Below the pieces are notes generated by a model that was not told the DNA's origin, did not search any database, and saw only the letters and a list, made by a program, of their open reading frames with translations. Positions 10,085 to 49,087 of a DNA stretch of 64,000 nucleotides are shown here, one piece after another; position 1 is the first letter of the stretch, and each line of letters starts with the position of its first letter. Source of the stretch: Azolla caroliniana (taxonomy: Eukaryota; Plantae; Polypodiophyta); NCBI GenBank assembly GCA_043228905.1, contig JBHGNT010000004.1:8804001-8868000 (forward strand). The letters run 5' to 3'. Both the position numbers and the translations under genes were made by a program.

Positions 10085-10091
10085 TACTCCC

Positions 10092-14495: not shown

Positions 14496-15335
14496 GATGC
14501 ACGTTGTGGGTATGCAATAAAATAAGGAGGTTCAGAAAATACACAAGCAAAATGAATGCTTGAAATTTTGATTGAAAGAACTTTATCCAAGAAAGTATCT
14601 CATGTCTTTACCCCTCTAGACATATGAGATGTGATTCGAGATCCGATAACTATGGTAACACTATGGTGTTTTAAAAACCATGGGGGAAAACATAGCTAAG
14701 ATGTATTTCTCGGATCTCTATCTTGAGTAATCATGGCGGCTCCCCGAGGCTCAACCATGGTTCTTACATCAATGAAATTTCCTAGATAGCCTTATATTAA
14801 TGCCAACCCATCATGTATTATATGGTCGAGAAAGTGTATTACGTGAAAAAACAAGTGCACTCACAAGTAATATTCTAGTCTTGCGAGCAATAAGCAAATG
14901 TGATGATAAAATGATAAAATAAGGCACTACTCATAAGAGTTAAGTAGTGACGAAAACAAGGGTAAAAAAAAAAGAACCCATGTGTTACCTACGAAAAAAA
15001 CAATGTCACAAATAAATGGGAAGTGCAAGGTATGCACATATACAACCCAATATGATTGTTATAACTTGCACAATTGTGACATAAGCCACAAATTGATACA
15101 AGTGATGACGGTGTTGTGCGCAAAGATGTAATACTCAAATCCATGAGTAAAACATCAATAAGGGAACTCATATGGTTTTACTCGTTTTCTAAGGCTTGAT
15201 GATAAGAGTTAAACCTAGATGACCCGTTGAAAAAAAAAATGCTAACATAACATTGCACACCAATTTACGCACCGATCCGGTTCTCGGCTTGCACAGCCGA
15301 CCTGGCCAATGTTGAGCTTGTATCTCAACATAGAG

Positions 15336-19700: not shown

Positions 19701-20117
19701 ATTGGCAAACGGTTGATCTTTATCCAAACAAGCATAAAAGTTAGAATCTTGATGAGGAATGTAACATCCAACAACAAAAGTGGGCAAATCATTAAGTGTT
19801 TCTATTTTGAGCCATATGTAGCATTTATTTTCATCATTTTTTATGATTGACACATATTTCTCTATTTCCTTCTTAATCAAACATGCCACCCCTCCTTGTC
19901 CTCTTCTTTGTCTTGGATTTTTCTTCCATATCAAAGAGTGTACATTATAGTTTCCTAAACCTTGAATCCTTTGAGTATCATGCTCCCATGTTTCAACAAG
20001 AAGTGTGATATCCGAGTCATTGGTGAACTCCTCTATGCCAAATCCCGCATTCCATGGGTATCCATTGCAATTCCAAAAGCATAGTCGTAAAAGGCGTGGG
20101 TTAGTCTCATAGATCAC
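16743..20117 (-). CDS. LINE ORF2: APE endonuclease, reverse transcriptase and Cys-rich C-terminus
   Basis: 1124 open codons with WNCNG, ETW, GDMNAR, IDY, SDH, QAGFR, FVDFKKAFD, GVKQGCPLSP, LYADD, YLG, RLCTLC..H....C. The annotated start codon is GTG. Confidence 0.95.
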   Translation of the reverse strand: MIYETNPRLLRLCFWNCNGYPWNAGFGIEEFTNDSDITLLVETWEHDTQRIQGLGNYNVHSLIWKKNPRQRRGQGGVACLIKKEIEKYVSIIKNDENKCYIWLKIETLNDLPTFVVGCYIPHQDSNFYACLDKDQPFANLEDDIAYFKSKGEVIVFGDMNARTRSFQLDSQESFMPHISRMQEDMQMYNRSSSDEKDPDQFGKLLLQMCNSTRLLIANGISLWPNTNGFTCRKYNGNSVIDYVLLSEGILDRIHKFSLGEWTPESDHRPLCIDLKCMHRFDCEKAIEDNKQPHLSMNLKRAPMYSKMVEDMLQMTKIQHGATLECKWEAFKKVILSCTNKCFSTNRTSWKCTKKLRKKWFDKECREARKCLMVLDVVKDKENYQKHLHEYKRLIQRKRRIWEVTQQFIQTQEKAHACAKFWGNLKGKRVESYGDLTLHDLSMHCKNLYELSLAGKMMCYGSLSHMPSFFTIEDICIGLKKLASRKASDLQCIKAEMLKWTGKEAHIWISDMFNDASQHGMPYDWTTNWIKPLHKGGDINNVNNYRTIMVGSLMAKLFGCIMESKISVWAEKSGKRAYGQAGFRKHHSTIDHLITLRVLMEESRLRGKGLYCCFVDFKKAFDMVPREHLWRRMEELEVPSEYMLAISRIYEKVICCVRMKDKLSDFFKSTIGVKQGCPLSPTLFGLCIDELEEMVTKFAKEECVEEVAIGNVVIMLLLYADDVVLFANTLGDAQKLMKAMEKFCMHTKLSVNSSKTKIMLVKSQKRDKPCIMYNNEPLECVESFKYLGLEVPSNHRWNECATRRLEAGKRAYYAFENTCNLGDIKCWVLKKYLFDTLVTPVLLYGVEVWGGSIPKSMWKEFENVQKHFLTKFLQVKKQTPYTLLLLETGSLPIEIMAMERVVEYMLKVQKSPSHRLPRIAWEASKKIQKTHKSKILCSGWMQDIEKWFGRWDARHLLHDASLDSSVNEAFLQRQCIMTWDKCGGSRFTHYTTHVAPNYKTIFFAERGNRTHPYMLEPIPLSAIRTIASMRLSSHALRCETGRWGTSDESCRLCTLCPKQVRESEYHTLIQCSAFDHIRPCFPHLFDRAQSLHEFLSQPQCALSIATFIGKVLEHRESLLTFTRIT

Positions 20118-20123
20118 GTGTCC

Positions 20124-20993
20124 CTATTTGCCTACATTTCCATCTTTAGGCACATCCTTAACCTTGTTTTTCAATCTTTCTTCATATGCTTTACGACGAG
20201 CATTTTGTTGTGAGATAGTACGATCTTCACTCACAAAGCATTGTGTACCTTTGAGGTATACCCAACTATTTTCGAGTATGATCCGCCGCTTTGTATCATC
20301 TGTCATTGTGCATACAATAGGCCTTTCTCCGGAGCGAGTAACACCATGTTTCCCAACTCGGTGTGCCCCATATACATTCACATCTGACATCCCATAATGC
20401 ATGCTAAAAAATTCACCAATGGCCTTTCCAAGGGATGCGGGTGTTTCCATACTCTCTTCTTTAATCCCACGGACGACAATGTTCTTTGATCGTCGTTCGC
20501 GTTCTTTCAATTCTTGGACATCTATGCTTTCTATATTCTTCTCTTGGTGCATCACATGCATATTAGATGAGTTTGATAACACATCCCCACCACATACATC
20601 GGCCCATGACTTCGTTGTACATACATTTTTCATCTCACTTACATCCCGCCTCATCGTATCCAATTTTTCTTCTTTTAATGGTTCCTTTAACTCAATCTTG
20701 TTAAGGCGCTCATTTGTTTCAAATGAAGCTCTTTTACATTCTTGAATCTCTTCTTGAAGTTTTGCAACCACTTGTTTAAGACTTTCATTCTCAATGACAA
20801 CACTTTGGAGCTTAGTATTCTCTTTCATTAACATCCTAATATCTTCACCTTGCTTGTTTATGGTTTCTTGAAGAGAAATCAAGTGACTCATAAGCATTTT
20901 GTCCATTGCATTAGAATCGAGATTTGTTGGTGATCTCGGCTCATTATCAATCATACCCCCAAACTTTGCGGCGGTTTTACGAGTATTTGCCAT
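20124..20993 (-). CDS. LINE ORF1 (coiled coil plus RRM-like region)
   Basis: 289 aa with ATG start, heptad-rich middle, and RSKNIVVRGIKE..HRVG..RPIV..SED motifs typical of LINE ORF1 proteins. Confidence 0.9.
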   Translation of the reverse strand: MANTRKTAAKFGGMIDNEPRSPTNLDSNAMDKMLMSHLISLQETINKQGEDIRMLMKENTKLQSVVIENESLKQVVAKLQEEIQECKRASFETNERLNKIELKEPLKEEKLDTMRRDVSEMKNVCTTKSWADVCGGDVLSNSSNMHVMHQEKNIESIDVQELKERERRSKNIVVRGIKEESMETPASLGKAIGEFFSMHYGMSDVNVYGAHRVGKHGVTRSGERPIVCTMTDDTKRRIILENSWVYLKGTQCFVSEDRTISQQNARRKAYEERLKNKVKDVPKDGNVGK

Positions 20994-21909
20994 TGTAGGG
21001 ACAAACCGTACGGGAAAAGAGAGACAAAGAGGGAAGGAGAGAGAATGTACCTTTCACTCGATTTAGGGCTTCAAAATCTACCTTCCGTTTGAGGAACCGT
21101 GGGGCAAAGATGGCTGCGGATGAAAGAGAGAGAGATACAGAGTGATACTCTATCATAACCGCCGCTCGGCAAAGAAATAGAGCTCGAGGTCGTTGCCTCC
21201 GAGTCTCTGATTGTACCTTTCTCATATAGTGATATTTTGGAGTCTATGGGCTCCCGTGGTTTTTTCCCTATTAGGTTTTTTCCACGTAAACATCCTGTGT
21301 ATCCTCTATCGTTGTTTGTGTGCATGTGCGTATGCGTACCAATTTCCCTACTTCCCATTTCTGTGTTTGATTCTCATCAACAAGTGATTCAAGACTCGGT
21401 TGTGGCCGAGCAATACTCCGCGCTATTTCCCTCATACCATAAGTTGGTTGAAGATAGAGCTTGGTTAGAAAATAAGGTGTTGGATACATGGAGCATTACT
21501 AGAAATATAAAGTGGTGGCATAGAGTTTTAGATGTAGGGTGGTAGCCTCATCTTCCATTCCGTGCAAAGGTGTTTCTTTGGCATGCCATAGTTGGTGGGC
21601 TGCCTTTGGCAATGACCTTAAAACGAAGACATATTTCGAATGGGACATGTTTTTTCTTGTACGGTGGTTGAAGAAGATGCCAAACATAGGCCATTTGGGT
21701 GATTATGTCACAAATTTGGGCATCGATAATAGAAAATATTTTGTCACTTTATAAATGGGTTTATATGGATGAGGATAAAGTTATGCCCACACCATCATAT
21801 AAGGTGGTTTTTGATTACCTTGGATATTGGGGGATATGGTTTAATTGTACCATGAGAAATGAGTTCTTGTTTGATGGACTTCAAGGGATAACACAACAAC
21901 TCTGTAGGA

Positions 21910-24900
21910 TGAAAGGGAAATTGATTTGGCAACTTTTGTATCGTTGTATGTTGATGATCCAAACTATTGTCATAGACAATCACCCAATCTCCTTCTTCAA
22001 TCCCGCGGTCGTAGTCGATGTTTTGTGTCGAATCGGCTTTTGTTCCTGAATCGTGCTTCTTGTTGTCAGCGTGTTGCTTCCGCTATGTCTTCCGGTCTTC
22101 CCTCTAGTTGTCGTATCTGGACCACTAGTAGTTCTTCCCGGCTCATCTCTTCCTTCTACGGTAGCATTGTCCATGTTGCGATCGCGGTTTCCGTCGGCAT
22201 TACCGGTGCTTGTCCGGTCATAAGTTTAGTCGGCATATAACCGATTACGGAGCTATGCGTCGTCCGATCCGCCGATAGTGCATATGGGAGCATCTGCGAC
22301 CAATCCTTCACCCTTCCGTCGCATGCTTTGGGAAGTGCTTTGAGGATTGGACTATGTCCTCGTTCGATTTTTCCATTGGCCTCTAGATTGTATGCCGTTT
22401 TTAGTGTTAACCGAACTCCATGTTTGGTGAAGAATTCCCTAGCTTTATTAGAGTCGAGTTCTCCCCGATCCGCAATCACTTGTCCTATGCACCCATACTT
22501 GCAAAACACTTATTCCAAAAGGAATTGGCATACCGCAGAACACGTTTTCCTCCATAGCGCTCGACCTTCTACTTGGTTTATGAGATCTTCCTGAGCTAAC
22601 ACCAAGTACTTCTTTTGTCTGATCCCCATTGGCATGGCTACAATGTCAACCGTCCATTTGAAGTTGATTGTCAGTGAGAATGTCGGATGTAACTCGTCTC
22701 GGTGTCGAACTCCGAAGTAGATTTCCGTGAGCTCCACCATATCTTTGTACATATTCTTCCACCAATATTTTTCTTTGATTTTCACAAAAGTTTCCCATGT
22801 TCCTCGATGTCCAGCCCAATCGGATTCGTGAAACTCGGACATTATCCAGTTTCGTTGCTCTTTCATCCCGACTACCCAAAGTGGTATGCCATCCAGTCTT
22901 TTTGGCTCCCTCCATATTAATCCATTTTTCAAGAAGAACTTTTGGACTTGCCTCTTATGCCTTCGGATCTCGGCTCTCTTCTCTTTATCGTCTGGTGATT
23001 CCTCAATCTCTTGTAGCACCTTCCTGATCATCACGCTTTCTCCCTCGTACTCTTCTTCTCGGAATTCTCGGATTACGTTTAACCGACATATGTGCTCCGA
23101 AGCAAAGTAGTCTTCAGAAACTTCTTCATTATTGGATTCAGCTATGTCATCTCTGAACCGAGCCCTTGATAGCATATCCGCTACTGCGTTGTCTTTTCTG
23201 GAGATGTGTCGTACGTCCGGGTTAAGCGACTTAACATATGCAATCCATCTTAGCATAGCCACATCCGGTATCGTGCAACACCGCATCATCCCGAGTATCG
23301 GAAGACAATCCGTTTCGATCACTACTTCGGCTCCGATCAAATAATCTCGATCCGATTTGATTGCCGACATGACTCCCCATAACTCTCTTTTGACTTGTGC
23401 ATACCCGCGTTGTCTTTTGTTGAGAACCTTTGCTCTGAATCAGATTGGATATAGCGAACCATCCGAGTCGGCTTGATTGATGACCCATCTGATTCCGGTT
23501 GGACTCGTGTCAACCGTTACTATGATTGGTTGGTGATAGCTTGGCTTCTTAAGTGATTCCACCCTCCGTAGTGTTTTCTTAAGCTTCTTCATGGCTTTAG
23601 TATGTTCCGGTCTCCATTCGAACTTCTTACCCTTCTGCAACAAGTGATAGAGTGGGCCCGCAATATGTGCATAGTGCGGAATCCATATGTGATAAAATGC
23701 ACAAGCTCCAAGAACCCTTCGGACTTCGGATTGTGACTCGCATACTTCTTTCATAGCTTGAATCGCATTGATCTTGGTTGGTGACGGTCTTTGGCCGTAG
23801 GGCCCACATAGATGTCTAACTACCAATATTTCTTCTTGTCCGAATGCCAATTTCTCACCGGAAAGTGTTAGGTGCACATCTTCTAACTTTCATAGCACTT
23901 TCTTGCAATCGCGAATATGGTCGACTACAAACTGTTGGCATCCCTGATCATCCATAATCTAATCTTTTTCTTCCACCGCGCATCCTTTCATCGGAATGTC
24001 ATCTAGGAACGGCATCGTTATCTCCGGAATGCAGTCTTGAAGCACCTTGTTCATCGCATTCATCATATGTGCAACCGAGTTTGTCGCTCCTTGTGGTAGT
24101 GTGCACATTCGGACTAATCCTATTGGTGTCCGCATGGCAGTGATGTCTCGGCTCTCCACGGCTAGTTGGAATTGTTCATACCCGAGTATAGGTCTCCGAT
24201 GGAGTATATCGCACGACCGGCAAATGCTTCTGCAAATTCGTCCACTATCGGACCGACTCCGGAGTTCCGGATCGTGACTTTGTTCACCGGTTGCAAGTCT
24301 TGGATATTTCAGAGTCACCCATTCTTCTTCGGAATCGTAAATCATCAATTTGAGTATGGAGCATTTGATGGCTCTAGAATCCCCATCGCCACCTTCTCCT
24401 TGAGCAAGTCGATGACTTTCGGAATATGCGCCCGCAGCACTGGAATCGGCTTGAGGTTCCACGGCACATGGTCAATCATGAAGATCACCATCGGTTCCAC
24501 TATCTTTGGATCAGCGCACCCTATCTCCATCGATGTGAACGAAAATGCTTCCCCATGTTGTTCCAACATCCCATGGAATCGTTCTTCTTCATTTTGTAAA
24601 AGGAAACCACCTCCACCAATCCGAAGTTTCTTCCGGGTCTCATCCGTGAAGGCATGTCCGATATCCACGGACTTCCGAAGTGTCGGATCTACTGAGACTT
24701 CTTTCCTCTTTTGCTCGCTATCAGTGGGTAACGGTCCTGCGGCCGGTTTCACTTTCTTCTCCACGGTTTTGTATTTCGTACTTACCATTGCTTCTTCTTT
24801 GCAGAGCGCATCCGGCCCCATTTTCGCAATGATCTCGTACATCTCGACTGATTCCACCGGGACTACCCGGTCTCCTTGGCTTTTATCCTCCACAAGCTCT

Positions 24901-26520
24901 TCAAGCTGTTGTAGCGTGCTCCCATAGAACACTTCTTCGACTACCCCCACGATTTCTTCGTCTTCTTTTATTATTGATGCCGACCGCAACTTATCCTCTA
25001 GTTTCCGGTATTCTTTCTTCTTTTCTTCGGTTACGGCCATGTACGTAGATACCCCATCTAGACCGATTTGTACTTGTTTTGCTCCGAGAGTTTTCTTCCT
25101 GTGTGGGGTACCAGGGCTTCTCGGACTATCACTTACCCACTCCGCAATAGTCCGCTCTAGAAATCCATCCTTCTTTGGGACAAGAGCTCTCTCTTGTTCC
25201 TTTCAGGATTTTCCGGCACAGTTAGGAATTGGACGGATTTCCCTCCGCTTTGGCTCCGAATTCGTGCGAAAGCCACACCGCTATCAAGCACCTTTGTCTC
25301 CATCCGTGAAGCCGTTATAAAGGGTTGCCCGAGGATCATGGAATGGGAGACCTCATCTTGTACGAAGAAATTTTGGTCGATCTCAACATCCCCGATCTTC
25401 ACCGTCACATCCGTACAAGCTACAAATAGATCTTCCGTTGCTTTAGTGGCTGCCCGGATCTTCCATCCATGCATAGTATTTATAGGCCACTTCCCCTTCC
25501 GGTAGAACTCCTTGGACATCAAATTGATCTTCAATCCGTGATCAATCAATGCTAGCACGGGCTCTTTGATGTTGTCGATTCGGACCGGAGTCTCCGTAGT
25601 TGCACGTGCGCAGTGTGGCCTTGTGTAGTGGGAGTTCGGAATTTCGTCCTCCACTTCAGTGTCATTCATTAAAACCGTGTTCACATTTACCCTTGGAGCA
25701 TTCTCCTCTCTACTTTGTCTTTTTCTCTTCACGAGATCCACAAGAAGGTCGCGGAACTCCTTCTTCGCTATTCCGAGTAATTCCCGAAGCGAAAAGTCCA
25801 CCCGACTATCAAGGATTCTCTCTTCAAACACCTTCTTTAGGTCCGTTTGTTGTTCGATGTCCGAGGCGAGTTTGAATGCCAGAATTGTTTTTCCTTTCCC
25901 CTTCCCTTCGGAGTTCCAACTCTCCGGCACCTTTGATGGTCCGACCGCATCATCCGTGCGCCTTCGTTTTTCATCCACATAGATACACTTCATGCAATTG
26001 ACATAGTGCGTGTACACTATTCTTATCTACGGGGCAGTCCCATCCCGTAGCTTCCCGGATACATTCCGCAGCGCTTCGGATTTCATCATGGTTGGCTTTG
26101 TTCGAAATTTCTAGCACTTCCAGTAGAAAAGACGCCTTTGCTCTAGATCACTCCCCCACACGTATTCTCGTGGTTGTCGCATAGTTGTTTTTAGCCGCGA
26201 TCTCCTCCTCTAGAACCTTCTTCATGCCGCCTTTTCGGAAGTTCAGTCGGAGTGGCTTCCGAGAGTCCATCGAATGGATCTGATTTCCCTCGTAGTAGAT
26301 AAGATCCCGTCGTAACACCTCCTTGTGCTCGTCGCAATCTCTCCGATCATGTTCGGTGCTATCACACCATATGCATCGACGGTCCATGTACTTGGAACTT
26401 GTGGGATGGTCTTCCATCTTCTTCACCATCACAATTTTCAGATTCTCCATCTCCTTCAACAATTGCTCCACCGTGGTTGCATCGACTCCCTTCTCAGTCA
26501 TAGTCTCCCGAGCCCGCGGT
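21910..26520 (-). mobile_element. Ty3/gypsy remnant D (same lineage as D2 and G), both ends lost
   Basis: gag CIWC knuckle, ALIDHG protease, LPQGATNSVA/FLDD RT, VDTSPTG RNase H, GHRG/DRGE/THSS integrase; no LTRs found. Boundaries approximate. Confidence 0.88.
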
Positions 26521-27795
26521 TGAACAGTAGTGGGAACGCATCAATTACTCTGGCCGGATTCAGCTTCTGGTATTTCACGCATACCCGAATCTTACCATTT
26601 TCCTTAGTTACTACCACAATCGAGCTCAACCACATTGCTTGCTTTACAGGCCGTATGAACCCGACTCTCAGAAGCTTGTCGATTTCTTCCTTGACCTTCA
26701 CCGCATAATTGGGATTCATTCGGTAATGGCGTTGTGGCACTGGTTTGGCATCCATGCTGAGGTGGATTTGATGTTGATAAAGTTGGGGATCCAATCCTTG
26801 CATATCCTCGTAGGACCAGGCGAATATGTCTCGCAAACTTGTGAGTAATTCGTCCATCGCCTTCTTTTCGACCCATGGCATTTCTTTGGCTACGTTCACC
26901 GGTCTGGGTGTGTCGTCGGTACCAAGGTCCACTTCCTCGAGCTGGCATGCTTTTACTCTTTGGGATATAGTCATTTACCTTTCCAATGATTCTTGTGCTT
27001 GTCGTAACTCCCAGATTTCTTCTTGATCCGGTTCGTCCGATTCCTTTCCCAGGTCCGTCACATATGGTATGACGGCTTCGGTTATGTCTACCTCAAATAA
27101 CGGCTTCGGTTATGTCTTCCAAGTAACAATCGACTTCTTCGTCAGCTAACCCGTCCAACATGTTGATGCTCTCCGCATATAGGGGGGTTACTTCCTTACT
27201 GGTTCCTACTCGTGGTTGTGGCGGTACGCGTACTTTGGTCTTTCCTCGTCGAAAGGTGATTACATTCTTTTGCTAGTTTTGTTTTATGTGCGCCATCCGC
27301 AACCATGGTCTTCCTAGCAACAAGGGATAGCCCCCTTGCACATTAAGTTGTAATACCACTGCCGATATCTGGAATGCGTATCCTTTGATTGTGTTGTCCA
27401 AGTCCTGAATGAGTCCGGTTGGTTGAACTGAACTTGTATCTACCATTCTTAGCCAGAATGGACACGGTTCCCAATCTCGGATTCCCAAGGTGTCACATGT
27501 CCCCTTGCTGATGACATTCACCCCTGAACCACCGTCAATAATGATTCCGGTGATCTCTTTGCCTTTAACAATCACTATGATGGACAGGCTGCTTGTGTCC
27601 ACCATTGCCGGTCCTTCCTCCGGATTGGAGCACAATGCTAGTGACGGCTCCTGATTTGGTGCGGTGAACGTTGTTTTGAGCCCTTCAGTAAATTGGGGGA
27701 CTAATTGTAGCAGGCGCCCCAATGGTAACACGATCTGGCATTCTTGTAATGCCTTCCAAGTTGGGTCCTTGTCGGTACTCTTTACGGTGTTGCGT

Positions 27796-27957
27796 TGTTA
27801 CGCGCGTGCGTGGAGAAAGGTGGGACCACGGGGGTCTTGGACTAGGGGGTGACGGAGCGTAGGAAGTCGTACTTCACCGTTTCCGGGGCATCCCAGAAGG
27901 ACACCGGAAGCAACCGAAGGGAGAGGGAGAAAGAGAGGGAGCGCGCGCTTGACACCG

Positions 27958-28000
<43 letters not shown>

Positions 28001-28560
28001 CCGACCCGACTCACGCCCTTATGTACAGGAAACGCAGGAAAAGGGGAAGCACCCGACACCAACAGAGACACCAATATACACAGACAGACGCAAATGTATA
28101 TATATAAAAGGAAGAATACATTCCCGGCTTCGAGCCTGACCAAGGTAGGTTACAGTAGTCGTCGGCTGCCAAGCCGTAGGTCGGGAGCTCACGGGCTTGT
28201 CGCGCCGAGCGGGGTCTTGCGCAGGAGACGAGCTGAAGCCAACCCTAAGCGAACACGAAGGGGGAGAAGAAGAAGAATAAGTAACCCTAAATCTAGCGGT
28301 ATACCCTCTAACGCAAAATGGGCAACCCCTTTCTAAAATGGCGCTCCCTTCCTTTTATAGAACAAGGAGAGGGATGCGTTACAATGTGGGATAAATCCCG
28401 ACTTACATGGGATCGTCTGTCCCGACTTGACTACTCTTCGGCGCCATAAAGGCGCCCTCGTTATTCACACTAAATGTACAAGGGTGAACACACATGCCAC
28501 ACCCCCCCGATGTAGCCAATGTTTCTCGGTTTCCGCCTCTGACCGAAATTCTTCACGACA
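27796..28560 (-). repeat. probable gypsy solo LTR (D2 lineage)
   Basis: TGTTAC...CTTCACGACA ends; subterminal GGACCACGGGGGTCTTGGACTA resembles the D2 LTR; flanks GCGT/ACGG are only a partial TSD. Confidence 0.65.
27964..27997. repeat. (CA)n microsatellite inside the solo LTR
   Basis: Uninterrupted CA dinucleotide run. Confidence 0.95.
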
Positions 28561-28861
28561 ACGGGCTCCTCCGGCTGTAAATTTTGCTCCTATATCTCGA
28601 CCACATTACGTTCATAGGCTTTCTTGATCCATTCGGTGGCTTGCTTCTGGATATGTTCTTGAGTTTCTCACTCGACCGTTGTTCCTTTGGAACGGGTAGC
28701 GACTTGCTAGATGTCGGTAACTTCAGCGGTGACCATGTTTACCGCCAGTTGTTTTTCGTTAGCCTTGACCGGACATTGGTTGCTATAATGCCCATCCTTC
28801 TGGCAATAATAGCAATATGCCTTACGGTTGCTGCCTGATTCCCTCTTGTCCATGTTTCTGT

Positions 28862-29564
28862 TATCGTAGTGTATTCCACACACAGCGTGAAAACCATAAA
28901 ATAATATATCCGATTTAGATACATATAAATAAATAAATAATATATCAAAACATTTATCACGTGCATAGGGCAGGATTCAAACCTTGCACCTCCACGTAGA
29001 TAAACCCCAACTTTACCATTGTAATAACTTATCTTTAGTGTTATACATATAGATTTAATACGTATAAGACCTTTATTTACACATACCTTTATTAAAAGGT
29101 AAAAATCATGTATTCTTTAGGGTGTGAATATTTTATTTACACGTGACATTGAAAGTGACTCATGCACATCTAGCGTGCATGAGCCCTATATTTAGGAAAT
29201 GACAAAGCATCACATGCACATTCAGTGTGCATGGACACTTTTGGTGAAAAAGCATGGAGCCATGCTTAGCCTCTTCCATGTTTATATAAGGAGGAGAGAA
29301 ATATGTATAAGGTTGTTGATTAATATACAAGGATTGATCAATCTAATATATTCGTGGGATTCACGAATTTTGCCATCAAAATTACTCTGATAATCTAAAT
29401 ATTGTTTTAAATACACTAAACTCGTGGGATTCACAAGATTGCTATCTTACTTCTCTTTCTACTATTCATAACTAGCCTTAAGTTGTATTCCTCTTCCTCC
29501 TAGTCCAAAACCTCGGCGGTTCCCACCCAACTCACGCAACGATCCATAGCCGAAAGGCACGACA
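28862..29564 (+). repeat. gypsy solo LTR with antisense tRNA-like cassette
   Basis: TATCGT (from TGTCGT)...GCACGACA ends, 4-bp TSD CTGT/CCGT, TATATAAG near 29283; shares blocks with 47968-49087 in inverted orientation. Confidence 0.8.
28973..29026 (-). promoter_or_regulatory. degenerate tRNA-derived A and B box cassette
   Basis: Minus strand TATTACAATGG...GGAGGTGCAAGGTTTGAATCC; 20/21 match to 48476-48496, same 32-nt spacing. Confidence 0.65.
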
Positions 29565-30332
29565 CCGTTCTGTGCATCGAAGGTTATCCAGCGTATGTCC
29601 TCCGTTTGTCGTTGCTTCGGTGGTGTCACAACGGTGTTTGTGCTTCTTGGATTGTACTCTCTGGCTGCTTCCCGACGCTTTTCCCTACGAAAATACCCTC
29701 ATTTTTGGTTGCGTCGGAAATTCCGATTTCCTTGTCATTCTAGATAGCGTCTATCGTCCCTTCTCCGATCGTAATCCAGGGAGTAGTCCCGTTCATACCG
29801 ATCTCGGTTGTAGCCTACCCTGTGTCGGTCGTCACAATCGCACTCATAATCGTCGTGTCTTCTATCATTGTCTTGATTCCCACATTCTGGTTGGTATCGT
29901 TCCTCCCTCCGGAACCGTTCGTCGTCCGGTTCATGACTGCGACGTGGTTTAATGTTCCGCAACGGTGCCTCTTGTCGGTTGAGCAGGTTGTACTCGCATC
30001 GGTCCGTTGTGTGTGCCCGTGAGTGGCATATCATACACTACGTCCTCATTGTGCAGTCTACCGTTGAATGGCCCGAGTTTAAACACATTGTGCATTGCAA
30101 CGCCTAGCGAACCCTGAGATCCTCCTTATTCGGAAGGGCCATATGCAGGGCTCCCATCGTCATCAGAGAGCTATGTTTATCCATTTCTAGCACTCGATCG
30201 ATGATTGTTACCAATTAGGAACACGGTCTACGGTCAGTCCTTCGACCTAGACCTCAAAGTGACTGTGTTGCAACGAATGGTAACGCCGTACCGTAATACG
30301 TAATGGGATACTTCCCTGTATCCTAGTAGCGT

Positions 30333-30946
30333 TGTCTAGGTATTCCTCGCGGATGCGTGGAATGAGGCGGAACCTCGGGGGTCCTGTACCAAAGAGCAAG
30401 AGAGGAAGGGGAAGAAACCCTCTACGTGCGAGCGTAGATCCACAGGGACACGGCCCTTCGACGCAAAGACGCAAGTGGGACAGCGACACAGAAAGGCACG
30501 AATGTATGTATGTATTAACAGAGGAAAACAACAAGAACACGAAGTCGGTTACAACCGAACAGGCCGGCGAACAGATACCGATGCCTATTCGTAAACGCAC
30601 AGAAAGACAGGAGCAGGTTGGAGGTGCTGCCGGAAGCACTCGGGCATTCCTCAGAGCAGCGCGAGCCTCCCGAAACCTGCACAGAAGGAAGCTATGGAGT
30701 TTGCGAACCAGAGAGAGAGAGGGAAGCCTTCGCACGCAAACCGACAACACTTCTTCCTCGACTCTCCGCGATCCTTCGCCGCTCCTCATCTCCCTCCTTT
30801 TATAGCCAAGGAAGGAGTCGTTTCCCTACCTACCGAATCTACCGGCCTAGGAGATTCTATGTACAACATAAGGCGCATGTGCACGAAGAGCCGGTTCCTA
30901 CGCTCCGGTGCACCGATTCCGCTTGTGGACGGTTTTCTTCATGACA
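30333..30946 (-). repeat. 3' LTR of D2
   Basis: Highly similar to 36639-37283 apart from a 31-bp indel in AAGAACACGAA-type repeats and scattered substitutions. Confidence 0.95.
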
Positions 30947-31019
30947 TCCGCCCCCACCTAACCGCGCATCCACCGGCATGCGCCAAATTGTGTTGGGACG
31001 GAGAAAACCAGTCCAGCCT

Positions 31020-34000
31020 TCATTCTCCGCCCGTCGGTTCTTCTTCGGTTTCGGATCGTTCGTCGTCACAGTCCAGGTTAACCGGATCCGGCTCGTCATC
31101 GTGACGCTTCTTGAACGCTTTGATCCGCTTCCCAGCTACGGGTATCGCCATTCTTGTGCCGTCGAATTCCGCCAGATGGTACGTTCCGTTGTCGTTGGCG
31201 CTTTGTACCACGTAAGGCCCGAACCATCTTCTTGCGAACTTCCGTGTCGCTCGGTGCTGGTTGTCGAGGCTGCTGTCATAGACTAGCACCCAGTCGCCTT
31301 CCTCGACCTTCTTCGGTCGGAGCCGGTGCGTCCGATCGAACCGGGCTTTGTTCCTCGTCCTAGCCACCCGAAGCTTTTCCGCAGCCTACTCCACGTCCTC
31401 CGGTCTTCGCTCGAGCTGTCGTATGCGCGCCGCCAACAGTTCCTCCCGGCTCATCTCGTCTCTCCAGTCCAGGGTTGCCCATGAGGAGATCGTACGTTCC
31501 ACTGGCATGATCGGCTTCTGCCCAAACATCAGCTCTGCCGGCATGAATCCGGTTACCGAACTGTGCGTAGTTCGGTTCGCCCACAACGCGTAAGGCAACA
31601 GCCGCGGCCAGTTCCCGACTTGACCTCTGCATGCCCGAACTAACGCCTTGACGATCGGTCCGTGTCCGCGCTCCACCTTTCCATTCACCTCCGGATTGTA
31701 CGCAGTGGTAAGCGAGAGCTTGACTCCTAGCCGGTCGAACAACTTCTCGGCCTCTTCGGCGTCCAGCTCCCCGCGATCAGCCACGATCTTCCTGACGCAC
31801 CCGTACCGGCATATCACGTCCTCAATCAGGAACCGACATACGGCCGCGGTCATTTTGTTCTGAAGGGCTCAGCCTTCTACCTGGTTGGTCAGATCTTCCC
31901 GAGCCAGGACCAGATACCGCATCTGTCCTACTCCCATCGGCATCGTCACCAGATCTACCATCCATTTGAAGTGGATGGTCGGAGGGTACGTAGGGTGAAG
32001 CTTGTCCCGATGCCGGACTATGGAGTGCATCTGACAGCTCTCGCAAGTTGTCACGAACCGATGCACGTCCCGGTACAGGCCCGGCCACCAGTACTTCCCC
32101 TTTATCTTCTCGAACGTGGCCCACGTTCCACGGTGTCCGGCCCAAGGGCTGTCGTGGTAGCCCGTCAGCAGCTCCTCCTGTTCTTCCTTCATCGCCACCA
32201 CCCGGAGCGGGACACCGTTCCTCTTCTTCGGGTGCTTCCATAAGTATCCGTCCCGGAGAAAGAATCGGTAAGCTTTCTTCCGGATCCGGTTGGCCTCGTC
32301 CTTCGTCCACGACGCATCCGGCGTCATCGTCCTCAAAAATCCACCGATTTGGAGCCACTCGCCGTCGTATTTGCTCTCGTCGAAGTCGTTAAGTGCCGGA
32401 GTGCTCGTCCCATCGGTCGTCACGTACGCTGCCTCGAAGAAGTCCACGCCGACTTCTTCGTCCTCCGAAACCATGCCGCCCTCGTCATCAAACCTCGCCC
32501 TCGAAAGCATGTCAGCCATGGCGTTGTCTTTTCCGGAAATGTGTCGTATTTCCGGGTCCAGGGACTTGATGTACGCTATCCACCTGAGCATCGCCAGGTC
32601 CGGTGTCGCGCATCCGGAAACCATGCCGAGAATCGGCAGACAATCCGTCTCGATAACCACTTCTATCCCGATCAGGTAGTCTTTGTCGGCCTTTACTGCC
32701 GAAACGATACCCCAGAGTTCGCGTTTAACCTGGGCGTACCCTCGCTGTCGGTCACTGAGAACCTTCATGCCGAATCGGATCGGGAACCGAATGCTATCCT
32801 CGTCTTCTTGGTTGACGACCCACCCGATCCCGGTCGGACTCGTATCCACTGTTATGTATTCCGGAGCGCCGGTGCTGCCGCAAGAGCTTCCTTCAGCTTC
32901 CGGACCGACTCTGTGTGCTCGTCTCACCACTCGAATTTTCGCCCTTTCTTCAGCAACCCGTATAGCGGCTCCGCAACGTGGGCGTAATGCGGGATCCATA
33001 TGTGGTAGAACGCGCATGCCCCCAGGAACCTCCGAACTTCCGTAACCGAGCTACAATCAGTCTTCATCGCAAAGATGGCTTCTACCTTTGCCGGAGACGG
33101 CTTCCGGCCATAAGGTCCACATAGGTGTCCGACCACCAGGATTTCCGATTGCCCGAAGGCCGATTTCTCCCCGGAGAAGGTGAGCCTCACATCCTCTAGC
33201 CTCTGTAGCACCTTCTCGCAGTCGTCGATGTGTGTCGCCACGAATCGCCGGCATCCGTCCGGCCTGACTGTCTCGTCCTTCTCCTCCACCGGGCACCCCT
33301 TGATTGGGATGTCGTCTAGAAACGGCATGGTGATGTCCGGGATGCAATCCCTCAGTACCTTGTTCATTGCATTCACCATGTGGGCCACCGAGTTGGTCCC
33401 TCCTTGTGGCAGGGTACACATTCGCACTAGGCTGAGGGGAGTTCGCATCGTCGTAATATCTCTGCTCTCCACAGCTAGCTGGAACTGGTCGTACCCCGAG
33501 TACAGATCAGCGAGTAAATCGACCTTCCGGCGAAGGCCTCCGCGAACTCGTCTATGGTCGGTCTGATTCCTGCGTTCCGAATGGTCACTCTGTTGACCGG
33601 CTGCAGGTCTTGAATGAAGCGCATCGTTCCGTTTTTCTTTGGTACGGTAAACCATCGGTTCGAGTATGGGGCACTCGACGGTTCGAGAATGCCCATATCT
33701 ACTTTCTGCCTCAATAGCTCCATCAACTTCGGGATGTGAGCTCTCGGTACTGGAATCTGCTTGAGATTCCACGGCACATGCGGTACCGTGAATATCACCA
33801 TTGGCTCCACGATCGTCGGGTCTGCGCACCCGATCTCGTCCGGTGAGAATGCGAAGGCTTTCCCGTGCCTTCCGAGCATTCTCCGAAACCGGCCTTCCTC
33901 CGCCGGCAGTAGGAACCCGCCCCCACCAATCTTGAGCTCCCGGAGCGTCCCGTCAGTGAAGGTGTGTCCTATGCAGGCCGGATCTCGTAAACTGGGGTCC

Positions 34001-34477
34001 GACGCCACCCCTCTGATTCGGGACTCGCTGCCCTCTAGTAAGGGTGCCGCGACTGGCCTTACCTTTCGGTCCACATTCTGGTCGGGCCGTCCGATCCGAC
34101 CCGAGCCCCCGACTGAAGTTCGCGATGACTTCGTACATCTCTTCGAAACATACCGGTATCGTCCGGTCTTCGTTAAGGTCTTCTCCGGCAACCTTCCTCA
34201 ACATCCCCAAGGTGTCGTCGAAGGAGACCGCCTCCACGGCTCCGTTGATTTCCTCGTCCGGGCCGAGAACTCCGCACGCTCGAAGTCGCACTTCCGCCCT
34301 TGTCTTTTCTTGCCCAACGATGCCGACTATCATACACCCTTCGTCGCCGGAGAAGCAGAATTTTCTACCTATCGTACAAGGTTTCTTCGGTTTCGGTTCT
34401 ATCGTACAGCTGTGGGGTCTTTCCCGAGTGTCCGGACTGTCTCGGCCCCATGCCTTGGCAGCCCTCTCTAAAAATCC
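31020..34477 (-). pseudogene. D2 RT-RNaseH-integrase ORF (-1 frame relative to gag-PR)
   Basis: YSGYDQF, LPQG, FLDD, VDTSP, GHRG, ADRGE and WFGPY motifs spread over frameshifted ORFs. Confidence 0.9.
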
Positions 34478-36622
34478 TCCCGGTTCTCGCCACCGAGGGA
34501 TTCACGGTTCCGCTCGTGGTTCGGTCTCACGGTCAGAATTTGGACCGAATGGCGCCCGTCCTGGCTTTTGACCCTTGCGTAGGCCGAACCGTTGTCTAGC
34601 ACCTTGGTCTCCATTTGCGCCGCCGTGATGTATGGTTCACCTAATATGACCGGGTGCGAAGACGTCTCCTGTACGAAGAAGTGTTGGTCAATCTCGACGT
34701 CGCCGATCTTGACTCGCACGTTCGGGCAGGCCCCATGCAGTTCCTCGGTGGCGCGCGTCGCCGCCCGTATCTTCCACCCGTGCTTGGTGTTGATCGGCCA
34801 CTTCCCCTTCTTATAGAAGTTCATGGACATTAGGTTTATTTCCGAACCGTGGTCCACCAACACCACCACCGGTTCCCGAACATCTCCGATCTTTACCGGG
34901 GTCTCCGTGGGTCGCTCGGGCCCAGTGTGGCCTCGAATAGTGGCTCTCCGCCCACTCATCTGCCAGCGCCGAGTCGTCGATGTGCGTCGTCCGCACCTCT
35001 ACCGGTCTTTCCGGATCCGTCTCCGTCGACAGCCTCTTCCGTTTCACCAAGTCTACAATGGAGTCGTGGAACTCCTTCTTGGCGATCCCTAGCACCTCCC
35101 GCAATGACAGCTCCACCTTGCTGTCGAGGATCCATTCCTCTAGGACCTTCCGTAGGTCCGTAGTCCTTTCTATTTCTGTCCCCAGTCGGTATCCGCCCTT
35201 CCTGGGGTTATCTTGCGAGTTGGGCCCGCTGGCATCGTTCCGTCATTGCCCGAATCGGGTCTCGTACCGTTGTGAGGGCCCGGCCGCTCCGGCTTTCCCC
35301 ACTCGTTTGTCCTCTACCAGAGCCTCGTAGTTCCGGTAGGCGGCTTCTACGAAGCCCGTCTTCTCCTCGACCGGATCGCTCCACCCGGTTATTTCCCGGA
35401 CCCGTCTCTCAGCGTGGTCCGTTTCATCTTTCCTTCGCCGTGCGCCGGCAAGACCTCCCAGCATTGCCAACCAGAATCCGTCTTTGCCCTCTGTTCGGGC
35501 CTCGCTGCCCCCGACCCGAATTCCGGCCGACGCCGAGTAGTGGATGGCCTCTACGTGTCGGGCCGCTGCCTCTTCCATCAGTCTCTTCATACCTCCTCGC
35601 CCGTCGTTTCGGTTTAGGGTCCTCCTGGTGTCGCCGGCGTGCACCCGGCCTTCCCACAGGTACACCACCCAGTTCCTCAACGCTTCTGCGAAATCGCCGC
35701 AGTCCTTCCGGATGTGGCCGACCTCGTCGCACCACATGCACCTGTTCCTTGCTGCCGGCCATCGGTCACGAGCCGGTTCGCCGCCTTCCCTTCGAGTCTG
35801 GGCGATCTGGAGATCCTTTATCGCCCGCGTCAATTCCTCCAGCGCTGCTCCTCCGGACGAGCCACTGACCATGCCGGTCGAAGCCGGTCCGGTCCCGAGC
35901 CATTCCCGGGTCTCTTCCCTTCGCACTTGCGGTGCCGGTTCAAGCCTCCTTGCTGTGACAGAGCCCGCACCGGCCGCCCCGTTGTCAGCCCATTCTCGCC
36001 GTTTATCGAAACGGCCACAGACTCTCCTAACCGCAGCCCAATCGGTTGTCAACCCGTCCTCAGTTTCCAGCAAGGAGCCGCCTTGGTCCCGGTCCCGCTC
36101 GTCCACCGACTTGAAGAACAGTAGGACCCGGCTCGTATCCAGAATGGTTCGGTCAAGCGCCGAAAGGCGCGCAAAGCGTTCCTCGAACTCCCGGAGGAGT
36201 GCCGTCGCGTTTCTTCCCTTGCCGGGGAACTCCACCCATTCCATGAAGTCCCGTTTCGAAAGCCAGAGTGCGTCGTCCAGCCCGTATTTCTCTAGGAGTC
36301 GGCCTTCGAACTCCTCCCAGGTACGGCTCTCCGCCCGCACCTCGAGCACCTCTGCATGGATGCTCGGCATCGCCACTCAAGGAAACCCGGCAAGACGCCT
36401 CTCTTCCGGAATGTCCCGCATCAGCATTTCTGCCCCGTACGACGCCAAATACTTCGTGACATCCTTTCCGCTGAACCGGCCGATCGTACCGACGACCGCC
36501 TCAATGGCTCTGTCGAGGGCGCCGGTGCCCTCGCGTGCACTCAATATCCGATCTACGGCCGAAGCCATGGCCTCTGCAAGATCCGACCCTTTCATCTTCT
36601 GCTCTTCTACCGCCTCCTTCAC
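34468..36622 (-). pseudogene. D2 gag-protease ORF
   Basis: ORFs 36377..36622, 35243..36376, 34811..35116, 34468..34959; CMWC..GH...C knuckle, LVDHGSEIN protease; ends REDF*. Confidence 0.88.
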
Positions 36623-36635
36623 GTCGGGTTCACCA
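36618..36635 (-). promoter_or_regulatory. PBS of D2, tRNA-Trp
   Basis: TGGTGAACCCGACGTGAA, 3 nt from the LTR, complements the plant tRNA-Trp 3' end (UUCACGUCGGGUUCACCA, recalled from memory). Confidence 0.85.
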
Positions 36636-36638
36636 AGA

Positions 36639-37283
36639 TGTCGAGGTATTCCTCGCGGATGCGTGGAATGAGGCGGAACCTCGGGGGTCCTGTACCAAAG
36701 AGCAAGAGAGGAAGGGGAAGAAACCCTCTACGTGCGAGCATAGATCCACAGGGACACGACCCTTCGACGCAAAGACGCAAGTGGGACAGCGACACAGAAA
36801 GGCACGAATGTATGTATGTATTAACAAAGGCAAACAACAAGAACACGAAAACAACAAGAACACGAACACAGGAACACGAAGTCAGTTACAACCGAACAGG
36901 CTGGCGAACAGATGCCGATGCCTGTTCGTAAACGCACAGAAAGACAGGAGCAGGTTGGAGGTGCTGCCGGAAGCACTCAGGCATTCCTTAGAGCAGCGCG
37001 AGCCTCCCGAAACCTGCACAGAAGGAAGCTATGGAGTTTGCGAACTAGAGAGAGAGAGGGAAGCCTTCGCACGCAAATCGACAGCACTTCGTCCTCGACT
37101 CTCCGCGATCCTTCGCCCCTCCTCGTCTCCCTCCTTTTATAGCCAAGGAAGGAGCCGTTTCCCTACCTACCGAATCTACCGGCCTAGGAGATTCTATGTA
37201 CAACATAAGGCGCATGTGCACGAAGAGCCGGTTCCTACGCTCCGGTGCACCGATTCCGCTTGTGAACGGTTTTCTTCACGACA
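36639..37283 (-). repeat. 5' LTR of D2
   Basis: TGTCGAGG...CTTCACGACA; adjacent to the PBS. Confidence 0.95.
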
Positions 37284-37287
37284 GCGT

Positions 37288-46129: not shown

Positions 46130-47600
46130 CTTTTGTCGTAGGCAGTTCCCCGGCCAAGGTGCCAAGTTGAAATGTGCCCTGTTCCGCTCCCACTATCCAA
46201 TACGGGCCTGTCCAGCGGAATCTTAATTTTCGTGGCATTCACCCCATGCATGTTTGAAACACTAATATCGGTTTCCCAACCGTAAAATCCTTTTCACACA
46301 CGTGCCGATGTCGGTCCACGGATGCTTTGCGCCACCGTTGTTCCTGCTCCAATATGGCCATATTGCGTAACCTTGTTTCGCCTAGTTCTAGTAGTTGTTG
46401 TAGCCGTATTTGCTCGGATTTACCCTCTGGCATCCGGGCTCGTACTTGAATCCACAGATTGGGTACTTGGAATTCAACTAGCATCACTAGGAATAGCTTC
46501 TTCTAATGTTCTTGGTTCGCCTGCACAGGTGTTGACATAGTCGAGGCCCGGTTGGTACAACTCTGTTTGCCTTCGAGCTCGTCCAGATCTCCTGGGTGCC
46601 GAGATAAGAGGTTCAGAGTCCTCAATCGGCTCTGACGGCCGATCGGTATTTGTTGAACCGTTTGTGTCAGGACTCTTGTTAGATTACCCACCCCCAAGTC
46701 GAGATTTCAGTGGTGTCACATTGTCGTCCCCTATGGACTTTGTCGACTTGGTTCTGTTTCCAACTCGCATCTTGTTGACTTTGTCTTCTTCGACTCTTGT
46801 CGAATCGGCTCTGTCTTTGTCTTCGAGTTCAATTAGTGGATTTTCTACCAATTCGGAGTCGGTAGATATGTTGTCGGCCTGGTCGAGTTCGACTATTTGT
46901 CAAATCCATAAAGATAATTTTAACAACACACTATGATGATATTATACATTATATGTCGAGGCAAATAAAAAAACCATGAAATGTACCACATGTGCACCAT
47001 ATAGCACACATGCAAGAGTCTCTCGGCATGTGCACCATATAGCACACAATCAAGAGCCTCTTTACATGTGCACCACATGGCCCACATGTAGAACCATCTC
47101 TTCCGTGTAAAAGGAAAAGGGAGTATGGTCACAAGGGATATCGAAGGAATTGAAATCGAAGAACTATATTGGATGATATATCAAGAGAATCAAATAGAGT
47201 TATATTACATAAGAGATATCATAAGATAGAAACTGCAAAAAAAGAATAAATAACAAGAGAAGAGCTAGCTTGATGGTTGTGGTGCTCAACTTGCAATGAA
47301 AGGGCGGAGGTTCGATTCTTATCTTCATCGAAATATTGAAGTAAAGATGTGAGACAAAGATCGAAGGTTCAACGATGCTCATAATCATTTTGTAACTCTT
47401 TCATCAAATAATTATAAATTTCTTTTATTCCTTGAAATATCATTCTATATCCTATCTTGTCATATCTTGTGGATCTCTATTTACTCTATCTCTACTCTTT
47501 CGTCCCTTCCGTCCATAATCCCAGTGATTCCCCTCACTTTCACGATATCTTTTGTGTATGCAATGCTACGCTTCTGAGCGAGCCACGTCACGACACAATT

Positions 47601-47618
47601 TGGTGAACCCAACGTGAA
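47601..47618 (+). promoter_or_regulatory. PBS of G, tRNA-Trp (one mismatch to the D2 PBS)
   Basis: TGGTGAACCCAACGTGAA. Confidence 0.82.
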
Positions 47619-47967
47619 ACGAGGAAGTAGAAGAGACATCTCAAGTACAGATCCACATCACCATGGCAAGTACGAGTACAATGGAACCGGTAAGGTTATT
47701 TATTGAAAAATTGAATCAAGATCAATTATTTCATGCCTTACAAGAAGTCCAAGAGAAGATTGGTGTGTTTGATGGCACAAATATTTCAAAGTATGTCACT
47801 ATATATTATGATGAAATGGAAATGTCTTGTGTGAATGATGTCAATATGATAGCAAACTTTTATAAATTAGTGGAGATGGAATTAAGAGATAGAATTCGTT
47901 AAATACAAGCATTGCATAGTTTGGATTGGAATGCATTCAAAGAAGACTTGTGTTTGAATATTCCCGT

Positions 47968-49087
47968 TGTCGTGAAGATCCGTCACTACGCGCAGATCGT
48001 GAGGCAGAACCGTCGGGGTTCTGGACCAGAAGGATTCGACGTTGGCACAAGCTTTAGCGAGAAAGGAATTAAGATAGATTGAAAGAGAGAGAGATTGAGA
48101 AAAGATAGAACGCTTGATTTTAGATTAAGAGAGAGATTAAGAACTCTTGACTTTAGATTTTAGAAACAAGTTACACGATTAATTCAATAACGAATTTTCT
48201 TCTTCTTAATTTCATAACCAAAAGAGCCTAACCCTGCTTCTTTTTCATCCTCCTCTTTTATAGATGCTCTCATGCATATGATGCATGTGAGGGTACAAGA
48301 CATGCATAAAATGCATGTTTGCCATTTGGCACTCATGTATTACATGTGGTGCATGATAACCATGTCACTCATTTTAGCTCTCATGTATGAGAATTTACAT
48401 GTAAAAGTGCAATGATAGAAATAAAAATTCAACTAAATGTAATGGCTTAGTGGTAAGCCTACTAACTATTAACTAGGAGGTGCAAGGTTCGAATCCACAC
48501 TTGCACTCCTTGTGTAGTGTGTATACATATATTTATTAATTTATTTATATATCTAGCCAGTCGCCGGATGCCGGATGACGCCGGTTCGCCGGATCCCGGT
48601 TCCGTCGCCGGATGCCGGATGCCGGTTACCGTTCGGTCACCGGGTCCCAGTTCCGTTGTCGGATGCTGGTTATGTTGCCGGTCTAGTTTTGGTTGGGCGA
48701 AACCTTTGTAAGTAGCTAGGCCACACCCATTCATCCAATAGCTTAGTTCAATTCACCTTGAACTCTCTATGCTCCACACATAGACACAAAGATAATAACT
48801 TTTGCTCTACCATATATATGGTGAGATCCTTATTTCCTGTCTATGTGGGATATCTCACACTTTTATTTTTCTCTTCTTCCTTCTCATACTTCACTCCCAC
48901 ATAACTTGTCGCTTAGATGTCTGTTTCTTATGTAGTAAAGTGCATCTCTTCAAGATCTTCGTCTTTTGTACTAAGATATTAAACTTACTTAGAATCAGTA
49001 TATTCACTATTATTGTTTTATATGATTGACACTTGATTTCGTACGTCTTATGTAATTTTCACACCATAGCCGAAAATCTTCACGACA
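47968..49087 (-). repeat. gypsy solo LTR (1.1 kb) in the gag of G, carrying a tRNA-like cassette
   Basis: 12-bp terminal inverted repeat TGTCGTGAAGAT/ATCTTCACGACA, TSD CCGT/CCAT, subterminal GAACCGTCGGGGTTCTGGACCA resembling the D2 LTR, TATAAAAG on the minus strand near 48255-48262. Confidence 0.82.
48435..48506 (+). promoter_or_regulatory. tRNA-derived Pol III internal promoter (A and B boxes)
   Basis: A box TGGCTTAGTGG at 48443-48453, B box GGTTCGAATCC at 48486-48496, 32-nt spacing. Confidence 0.75.

What the first reader, a model, noticed from the sequence alone, without database searches (positions are those of the whole stretch)
30329..37287. Trp-primed gypsy lineage makes 4-bp, CG-centred TSDs
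Seen: D2 GCGT/GCGT; solo 47968 CCGT/CCAT; solo 28862 CTGT/CCGT; solo 27796 GCGT/ACGG (imperfect). The mismatches in the second and third pairs are what CpG deamination would produce, so the consensus is about SCGT. All copia and chromovirus insertions here have 5-bp TSDs without such a shared core. Inference: this integrase has a 4-bp stagger and a preference for CpG, possibly methyl-CpG, which would give heterochromatin targeting without a chromodomain. The sample is only four sites, and the left flank of G (TATA) does not fit.
Basis: partly seen in the sequence, partly recalled or inferred. Interest (0 to 1): 0.7.

Follow-up and report, generated by a model that had tools for sequence, protein, structure and literature searches.

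The report
Fern Phygy retrotransposons insert at ACGT
These jumping genes in a fern-like plant land on a C-G pair and duplicate four bases around it, a habit already published for their moss relatives, and it likely comes from their integrase reading the DNA letters rather than a methyl mark.

Summary
Real, but largely published. D2 (30333-37283, minus strand) is a chromodomain-less, tRNA-Trp-primed Ty3/gypsy element of the Phygy kind, for which Neumann 2019 lists 4-bp NCGN duplications and Trp priming. In 63 independent paired sites from five LTR families, 39 have exact 4-bp duplications and none has 5 bp. CG is central in 38 of the 39. Genome-wide, 4,655 of 5,582 outward-facing LTR ends are followed by NCG. 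Chromovirus and copia controls give 5 bp. Corrections: the consensus is V-CG-B, ACGT commonest, not SCGT. The '27796' solo starts at 27788 and has a perfect ACGG pair. G's 'TATA' lies inside its LTR. Additions that my searches did not find in print: a fern-like host, strong avoidance of T at position 1, and a fit to the foamy-virus VYRB rule. Methyl-CpG targeting is untested. The motif alone lifts repeat-flanked sites from 46% to 62%; 75% is observed. No reader domain was found. My two look-ups showed no earlier scan note on this TSD.

The parts
30333..37283 (-). D2: full-length but broken Phygy-type Ty3/gypsy element, 6,951 bp
   Evidence: 91.6-92.7% identical end to end to four other copies
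30329..30332 (+). left target-site duplication GCGT
37284..37287 (+). right target-site duplication GCGT
36639..37283 (-). 5' LTR (645 bp; ends TGTCG and CGACA)
   Evidence: 19 mismatches in 614 aligned columns and a 31-base indel against the other LTR
30333..30946 (-). 3' LTR (614 bp)
36618..36635 (-). primer binding site complementary to the 3' end of tRNA-Trp(CCA), three bases from the LTR
   Evidence: the complement lies in tRNA-Trp genes at 6 of 6 loci scanned
30947..30959 (-). G-rich purine tract at the polypurine-tract position
   Evidence: same tract beside the inner LTR end in other copies
34468..34998 (-). protease frame, ending at the stop of the gag-protease reading frame; candidate -1 slippery site at 34471-34477
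32924..33952 (-). reverse transcriptase piece (RVT_1, E 5e-11)
31869..33050 (-). RNase H and integrase zinc-binding piece
31020..31868 (-). integrase core, GPY motif, SH3-like C-terminal domain and acidic tail; one internal stop; no chromodomain; ends about 70 bases before the 3' LTR
27788..28560 (.). solo LTR of a second Trp-primed family; duplication ACGG/ACGG (27784-27787, 28561-28564)
28862..29564 (.). solo LTR of a third Trp-primed family; duplication CTGT/CCGT (28858-28861, 29565-29568)
47968..49087 (.). solo LTR of a fourth Trp-primed family, inserted in the internal region of G; duplication CCGT/CCAT (47964-47967, 49088-49091)
46908..47618 (+). element G: 5'-truncated LTR (to 47595) and Trp primer site (47601-47618); no left junction

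Best explanation
D2 and the neighbouring solo LTRs are tRNA-Trp-primed, chromodomain-less Ty3/gypsy elements, likely of the Phygy lineage, that leave 4-bp duplications centred on CG (V-CG-B, most often ACGT), likely because their integrase bends the target at a central pyrimidine-purine step and reads the C-G bases directly, with or without a methyl mark. Shown: 4-bp length, CG centre, avoidance of T at position 1 and A at position 4, Trp primer site, no chromodomain or extra RNase H. Inferred by analogy with the foamy-virus intasome (target consensus VYRB): the sharp bend and the steric exclusion of T at the joined base. Inferred, with no residue identified: an added base contact that picks CG over the commoner TA and CA/TG steps. 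Because CpG is twice as dense in repeats as outside them in this genome, the motif itself steers insertions towards other transposons; selection likely supplies much of the rest.
For: 63 independent paired sites (65 found, 2 duplicates dropped): 4-bp exact 39, one mismatch 19, two or more 5; 5-bp and 6-bp exact or one-mismatch 0. CG central in 38 of 39 exact pairs and on at least one side in 61 of 63. Half-site logo (241): A59 C24 G12 T5 / C92 / G88 / T53 G25 C17 A5, with no strong preference outside. Among 144 CG sites counted once per insertion: ACGT 45 against 8.5 expected, TCGA 0 against 16.3, T1-or-A4 12 against 56% background. Genome-wide: 9,040 ends of three families, 3,458 facing the inner purine tract; of the other 5,582, 4,441 are followed by VCG and 214 by TCG. 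Controls: chromovirus 6 of 6 pairs exact 5 bp; copia 4 of 5 independent sites 5 bp; CG at positions 2-3 in 2 of 32 and 0 of 39 half-sites. Phygy is published as 4 bp (100%), NCGN, tRNA-Trp 81%, no extra domain. The D2-family protease is 51-68% identical to 19 P. patens proteins that form one clade; the window's chromovirus protease gives no BLAST hit. The best solved matches of the integrase are PFV and Ty3. PFV prefers VYRB, and 4-bp retroviruses disfavour T at 0 and A at +3 (PMC4422553 passages). CpG per base is 0.044 in repeat windows and 0.022 outside.
Against: No REXdb Phygy sequence could be read (supplements too large), so membership rests on traits and on unlabelled P. patens proteins. 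D2-family copies without nested insertions are about 6.85-7.0 kb, below the published Phygy range of 7,656-9,968 bp. Insertion flanks are in repeats more often than the motif predicts: 117 of 155 (75.5%) against 62% (95% interval 55-69%), difference interval 3-24 points, similar to the chromovirus (23 of 32). A chromatin or methyl component is therefore not excluded. The integrase model is weak (pLDDT 57, pTM 0.29) and names no CG-reading residue. Flexibility alone cannot explain CG, since TA, CA and TG are each twice as common.
Confidence: 0.68

Rival explanations
1. The integrase prefers methylated CpG, which would steer it into silenced transposon DNA without a chromodomain.
For: Flanks are repeats in 75.5% of sites against 62% expected from the motif alone, as often as for the chromovirus; 135 of 155 when all fetched loci serve as the repeat library. 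In P. patens methylation is confined to transposons (PMC6453930 passages).
Against: No methyl-reader or chromodomain Pfam match in integrase frames of six copies, and the D2-type integrase ends in a short acidic tail. The residual excess is also what selection against gene insertions would give. One flank holds a host gene fragment (Gar1) within 1.4 kb. The moss methylation pattern need not hold in a fern. No methylation data were seen.
Confidence: 0.14
2. A host protein that binds ACGT-core or CpG DNA tethers the integration complex, and the integrase is not itself selective.
For: ACGT is the modal site and is the core bound by plant bZIP factors (recalled, no call). The integrase has an acidic C-terminal tail that is disordered in the model and could dock a partner.
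Against: The motif sits exactly between the two cuts and is symmetric, with no strong preference outside it; a bound factor would cover the cut site. The same CG core is published for moss and holds in five fern families.
Confidence: 0.08
3. The elements are TatI, the other plant lineage with 4-bp duplications and Trp priming.
For: TatI is listed with 4 bp (100%) and tRNA-Trp (75%), from 4 elements.
Against: TatI carries an additional RNase H in 100%. None was found in frames spanning the protease-RT linker to the integrase end, at E up to 1. TatI averages 9.1 kb and no NCGN motif is reported for it.
Confidence: 0.03
4. The four bases are part of the LTR end or a boundary artefact, not a target duplication.
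Against: The four bases vary between insertions but match within each. Empty homologous sites hold a single copy with a 4-base overlap (8 homologues at two sites). Inner LTR ends are followed by the primer site or purine tract instead.
Confidence: 0.01

Closest known systems
Phygy (non-chromovirus Ty3/gypsy; Neumann et al. 2019, PMC6317226; passages, section 15 and Additional file 5 read)
   Same: 4-bp duplication, CG centre, tRNA-Trp primer, no chromodomain, no aRH, coding region filling the inside; protease 51-68% identical to P. patens proteins.
   Different: Described there as a P. patens-specific clade, whereas this host is fern-like. D2 is shorter (6.95 kb). The outer bases are not N (V-CG-B). 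Gag-protease and RT-RH-INT lie in overlapping frames, where the table says ND.
Prototype foamy virus intasome, target consensus VYRB (PMC4422553, passages)
   Same: 4-bp stagger, central pyrimidine-purine step, T avoided at the first and A at the last duplicated base; best solved match to the integrase (E 4e-19).
   Different: PFV accepts any YR step weakly and has preferences outside the duplication. Here YR is fixed as CG, and the residue aligned with PFV Ala188 is Glu in 22 of 23 relatives.
Drosophila ZAM, target CGCGCg (PMC2527525, passages)
   Same: A gypsy-type element with a CG-rich target that its integrase binds directly.
   Different: A six-base alternating motif plus a second binding site; here CG is a single central step and GCGC is under-used (2 against 3.5 expected).
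Plant chromoviruses such as P. patens RLG1 (PMC7466625, passages)
   Same: Found in repeat-rich DNA at a similar rate in this genome (72% against 74-75%).
   Different: They carry a chromodomain (window chromovirus, E 1.5e-7) and make 5-bp duplications without a core.
TatI and Selgy (PMC6317226, Additional file 5)
   Same: 4-bp duplications; TatI is also Trp-primed.
   Different: TatI has aRH; Selgy is Ala-primed and about 5 kb; no NCGN motif is listed for either.

Membership tests
Phygy | 4-bp target-site duplication | tested here: met
   39 exact and 19 one-mismatch of 63 at 4 bp, 0 of 63 at 5 bp; empty sites
Phygy | NCGN insertion motif | tested here: met
   38 of 39 exact pairs; 4,655 of 5,582 ends
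Phygy | tRNA-Trp primer binding site | tested here: met
   all five LTR families have copies with it; matches tRNA-Trp(CCA) genes
Phygy | no chromodomain | tested here: met
   no Chromo match in integrase frames; the same scan finds it in the window's chromovirus
Phygy | no aRH, no extra ORF, coding region spans the internal part | tested here: met
   the integrase stop lies about 70 bases from the 3' LTR
Phygy | phylogenetic grouping with REXdb Phygy on RT-RH-INT | tested here: inconclusive
   No labelled reference readable. RT-RH tree: D2 and 28862 families sit in a starred clade with Riccia, Adiantum and unnamed proteins, far from the chromovirus. Protease tree: P. patens proteins form one close clade, without an outgroup.
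Phygy | length 7,656-9,968 bp (descriptive; the authors call size of little value for classification) | tested here: not met
   D2 family about 6.85-7.0 kb, 28862 family 6.9-7.1 kb; the 47968 family reaches about 8.1 kb
TatI | additional RNase H (aRH) | tested here: not met
Chromovirus | C-terminal chromodomain and mostly 5-bp duplication | tested here: not met
Methyl-CpG-directed integration (proposed, not an established family) | preference for methylated over unmethylated CpG | not testable with these tools
   no methylome; only a repeat-context proxy

The most novel reading that the evidence does not exclude
Phygy integrases, conserved from moss to fern, read methylated CpG at the centre of the bent target and so aim at silenced transposon DNA with no chromodomain or host tether: an integrase that uses the host's own silencing mark as its landing signal.
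Probability: 0.12. Interest if true: 0.75.

Novelty: new member of a known kind. Interest (0 to 1): 0.22.

Why it matters
The headline (Trp-primed, 4-bp, CG-centred) is the published signature of Phygy, so it is not a discovery. The additions are modest. The lineage and its site choice extend from moss to a fern-like host with thousands of copies. The motif is V-CG-B, which fits the foamy-virus 4-bp rule. A bare CpG preference already biases insertions towards repeats, a passive route to safe sites. Neumann 2019 names Phygy as the only plant LTR lineage with a sequence-specific target, so these copies are good material for asking how an integrase gains base specificity. It would matter much more if methylation proved to be the signal.

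Tried and rejected
SCGT consensus: rejected, A leads. G as a counter-example: rejected, its TATA is LTR-internal. Four G-family 'solo' pairs with mismatched flanks were 3' LTRs whose purine tract had been taken for a flank; 9 ends were reclassified before the count. Strand asymmetry: none evident (sense-oriented A first 76, T last 85 of 144). Longer motif: positions 5-14 show no strong preference. The structure prediction of a 28862-family integrase frame was of low confidence, and the fold search returned only integrases among the rows shown, so no CG-reading residue can be named. The ESM Atlas gave generic integrase clusters. Pfam on frames in the 20 non-repeat flanks (74 frames from 19 flanks): four held retroelement domains, one a Gar1 fragment, one a weak EED-insertion match, the rest nothing; this says nothing on methylation. 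P. patens proteins found did not reach RT or integrase, so no RT tree with moss members. Literature searches: six-term search for CpG or methylation insertion preference, 0 papers; 'NCGN' plus retrotransposon, 2 papers, only Neumann relevant; 'Phygy' plus 'fern', 3 papers, two read as passages with nothing on fern Phygy sites, PMC13477047 seen in the listing only; one search listed 7. The library lacks most subscription papers.
Full report
1. The element. D2 spans 30333-37283 on the minus strand. Its LTRs (36639-37283 and 30333-30946) differ at 19 of 614 aligned bases plus a 31-base indel. It is flanked by GCGT on both sides, and the fifth bases disagree. An 18-base primer site follows the 5' LTR after three bases. 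Its complement lies in tRNA-Trp(CCA) genes at 6 of 6 loci scanned, out of 63 pattern matches. Pfam finds RT, RNase H and integrase pieces in gypsy order, split by stops and frame changes.

2. 47968 (CCGT/CCAT) and 28862 (CTGT/CCGT) are correct. The 27796 solo starts nine bases earlier, at 27788, as copies of its family show, and its duplication is ACGG/ACGG. G's TATA is inside the LTR; the window copy lacks the first 80 or so LTR bases. All five LTR families have copies beside a Trp primer site. Homologous empty sites hold the four bases once: two for D2 and six for 47968; none was found for the other two solos.

3. Counts. I searched the genome with five LTRs, took the 30 best loci of each, fetched 40 further stretches and 60 evenly spaced 10-kb samples, and located LTR ends by BLAST. 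After reclassifying 9 inner ends and dropping 2 duplicated sites, 63 paired insertions remained: 39 exact at 4 bp, 19 with one mismatch, 5 with more. None matched at 5 or 6 bp with at most one mismatch. CG is central in 38 of the 39; the exception is GTGT. Of 24 inexact pairs, 20 differ only by transitions. In 241 non-redundant half-sites (267 before removing duplicates; paired sites contribute two) the logo is A59 C24 G12 T5, C92, G88, T53 G25 C17 A5, with no strong preference further out. Counted once per insertion, 144 of 179 have CG. ACGT is 5.3-fold over background and TCGA is absent (0 against 16.3). Exact-pattern counts over the whole genome agree: of 9,040 ends of three families, 3,458 face the purine tract, and 4,655 of the other 5,582 (83%) are followed by NCG, only 214 (4.6%) of them by TCG. 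T is the first base of about 34% of background NCGN. These counts include segmental duplicates.

4. Controls. The window's chromovirus family gave 6 of 6 exact 5-bp pairs. One copia family gave 9 pairs: five were copies of one duplicated site (5 bp), three other sites were exact at 5 bp, and one did not match. CG at positions 2-3 occurred in 2 of 32 and 0 of 39 half-sites.

5. What it is. Neumann et al. 2019 (PMC6317226; passages, section 15 and Additional file 5 read; Additional files 1 and 3 too large to open) list Phygy as 186 elements, 4 bp in 100%, NCGN, tRNA-Trp in 81%, no extra domain. They call it the exception among plant lineages in having a site preference. Jedlicka et al. (PMC6911290, passages) also find 4 bp commonest in Phygy. 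Here no chromodomain or aRH was found. The gag frame carries DUF4100 and hits 28 P. patens proteins plus Riccia and Adiantum proteins. The protease is 51-68% identical to 19 P. patens proteins, and the chromovirus protease gives no hit (six rows left out for short or no match). On RT-RH the families group with liverwort and fern relatives (one row left out). That the P. patens proteins are Phygy is inferred, as they carry no label. A scan note called the host a likely fern. A host 4-coumarate-CoA ligase is 75-77% identical to proteins of three named fern genera, its best named hits; this is one gene. Phygy has also been reported in a liverwort (PMC12885004, passages).

6. Mechanism. Shown: a symmetric V-CG-B target between cuts four bases apart. 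From the literature: PFV has a 4-bp stagger and consensus VYRB, bends the target at the central YR step, and avoids T at the joined base, probably through a methyl clash; other 4-bp retroviruses share this (PMC4422553, passages). PFV integrase is the best solved match. Inferred: the Phygy intasome uses the same geometry and adds a contact that selects CG, since TA, CA and TG are each twice as frequent as CG yet hardly used. Leads only: a Glu in 22 of 23 relatives where PFV has Ala188, and a conserved loop before the GPY motif. ZAM shows that a gypsy-type integrase can bind a CG-rich target directly (PMC2527525, passages).

7. Methyl-CpG. CG decay in the duplications (40 of 241) resembles that at LTR termini (33 of 241), which fits methylation after insertion and says nothing about the empty site. 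With the 600-kb sample as repeat library, 117 of 155 primary flanks are repeats (75.5%). Random sites weighted by the motif give 62% (block-bootstrap 55-69%) and random positions 46% (39-54%). The motif thus explains about 16 of 29 points. The remaining 13 (interval 3-24, somewhat too narrow because half-sites are paired) fit selection, chromatin preference or methyl reading equally well. Chromovirus flanks were 23 of 32 and copia 16 of 40. The D2-type integrase leaves no room for a reader domain.

8. Verdict. The core claim is a published trait of a named lineage. The fern-like host and the V-CG-B refinement were not found in my searches, though the unread supplement may hold the latter. Interest 0.22.

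Noticed in passing
window 34468-34477 (minus); L155, L156, L157, L151, L152, L153: The gag-protease frame ends just after a conserved G-GAU-UUU heptamer in two families about 65-72% alike. RT lies in the -1 frame in three D2-family copies with an intact junction. This suggests a -1 frameshift between protease and RT; the likeness to known slippery sites is recalled. Neumann's table gives Phygy's layout as ND.
   Followed up: partly
L019 (G000:C10:4566837-4566842) and L144 (G000:C8:12182370-12182375): Two LTRs stand four bases apart, separated only by an NCGN-type word, as if a later element re-used the duplication left by an earlier one.
   Followed up: no
G000:C8:17.80-17.82 Mb, C5:10.11 Mb, C16:4.99-5.11 Mb, C300: Clusters and tandem arrays (spacing about 0.9-1.2 kb on C5, C8 and C300) of the tRNA-Trp 3' motif; 63 matches in all.
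   Followed up: no
G000:C4:9.23-9.80 Mb: Several large duplicated blocks repeat insertions of this window (the 47968 solo in G, the copia at 52095-57890); recent segmental duplication or assembly redundancy.
   Followed up: partly
window 22000-27787: Internal region of a 28862-family element, 87% identical to full copies, into which the 27788 solo is nested.
   Followed up: partly
window 9611-14531 (minus): A young Met-primed chromovirus family with intact frames and a chromodomain; its LTR has at least 40 near-identical copies.
   Followed up: partly
window 16743-21053 (minus): A LINE-like element with an endonuclease plus RT frame of 1,126 aa.
   Followed up: no
L022 and L023 (G000:C7:6156860-6163848): A D2-family LTR with a primer site on one side and a purine tract on the other, i.e. 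a tandem LTR-internal-LTR-internal-LTR array.
   Followed up: no
L133, L146, L182, L125, L148, L183 against window 47964-47967: Empty homologues of the 47968 site read TCGT or TTGT while the used copy reads CCGT, in line with avoidance of T at position 1; one site only.
   Followed up: no
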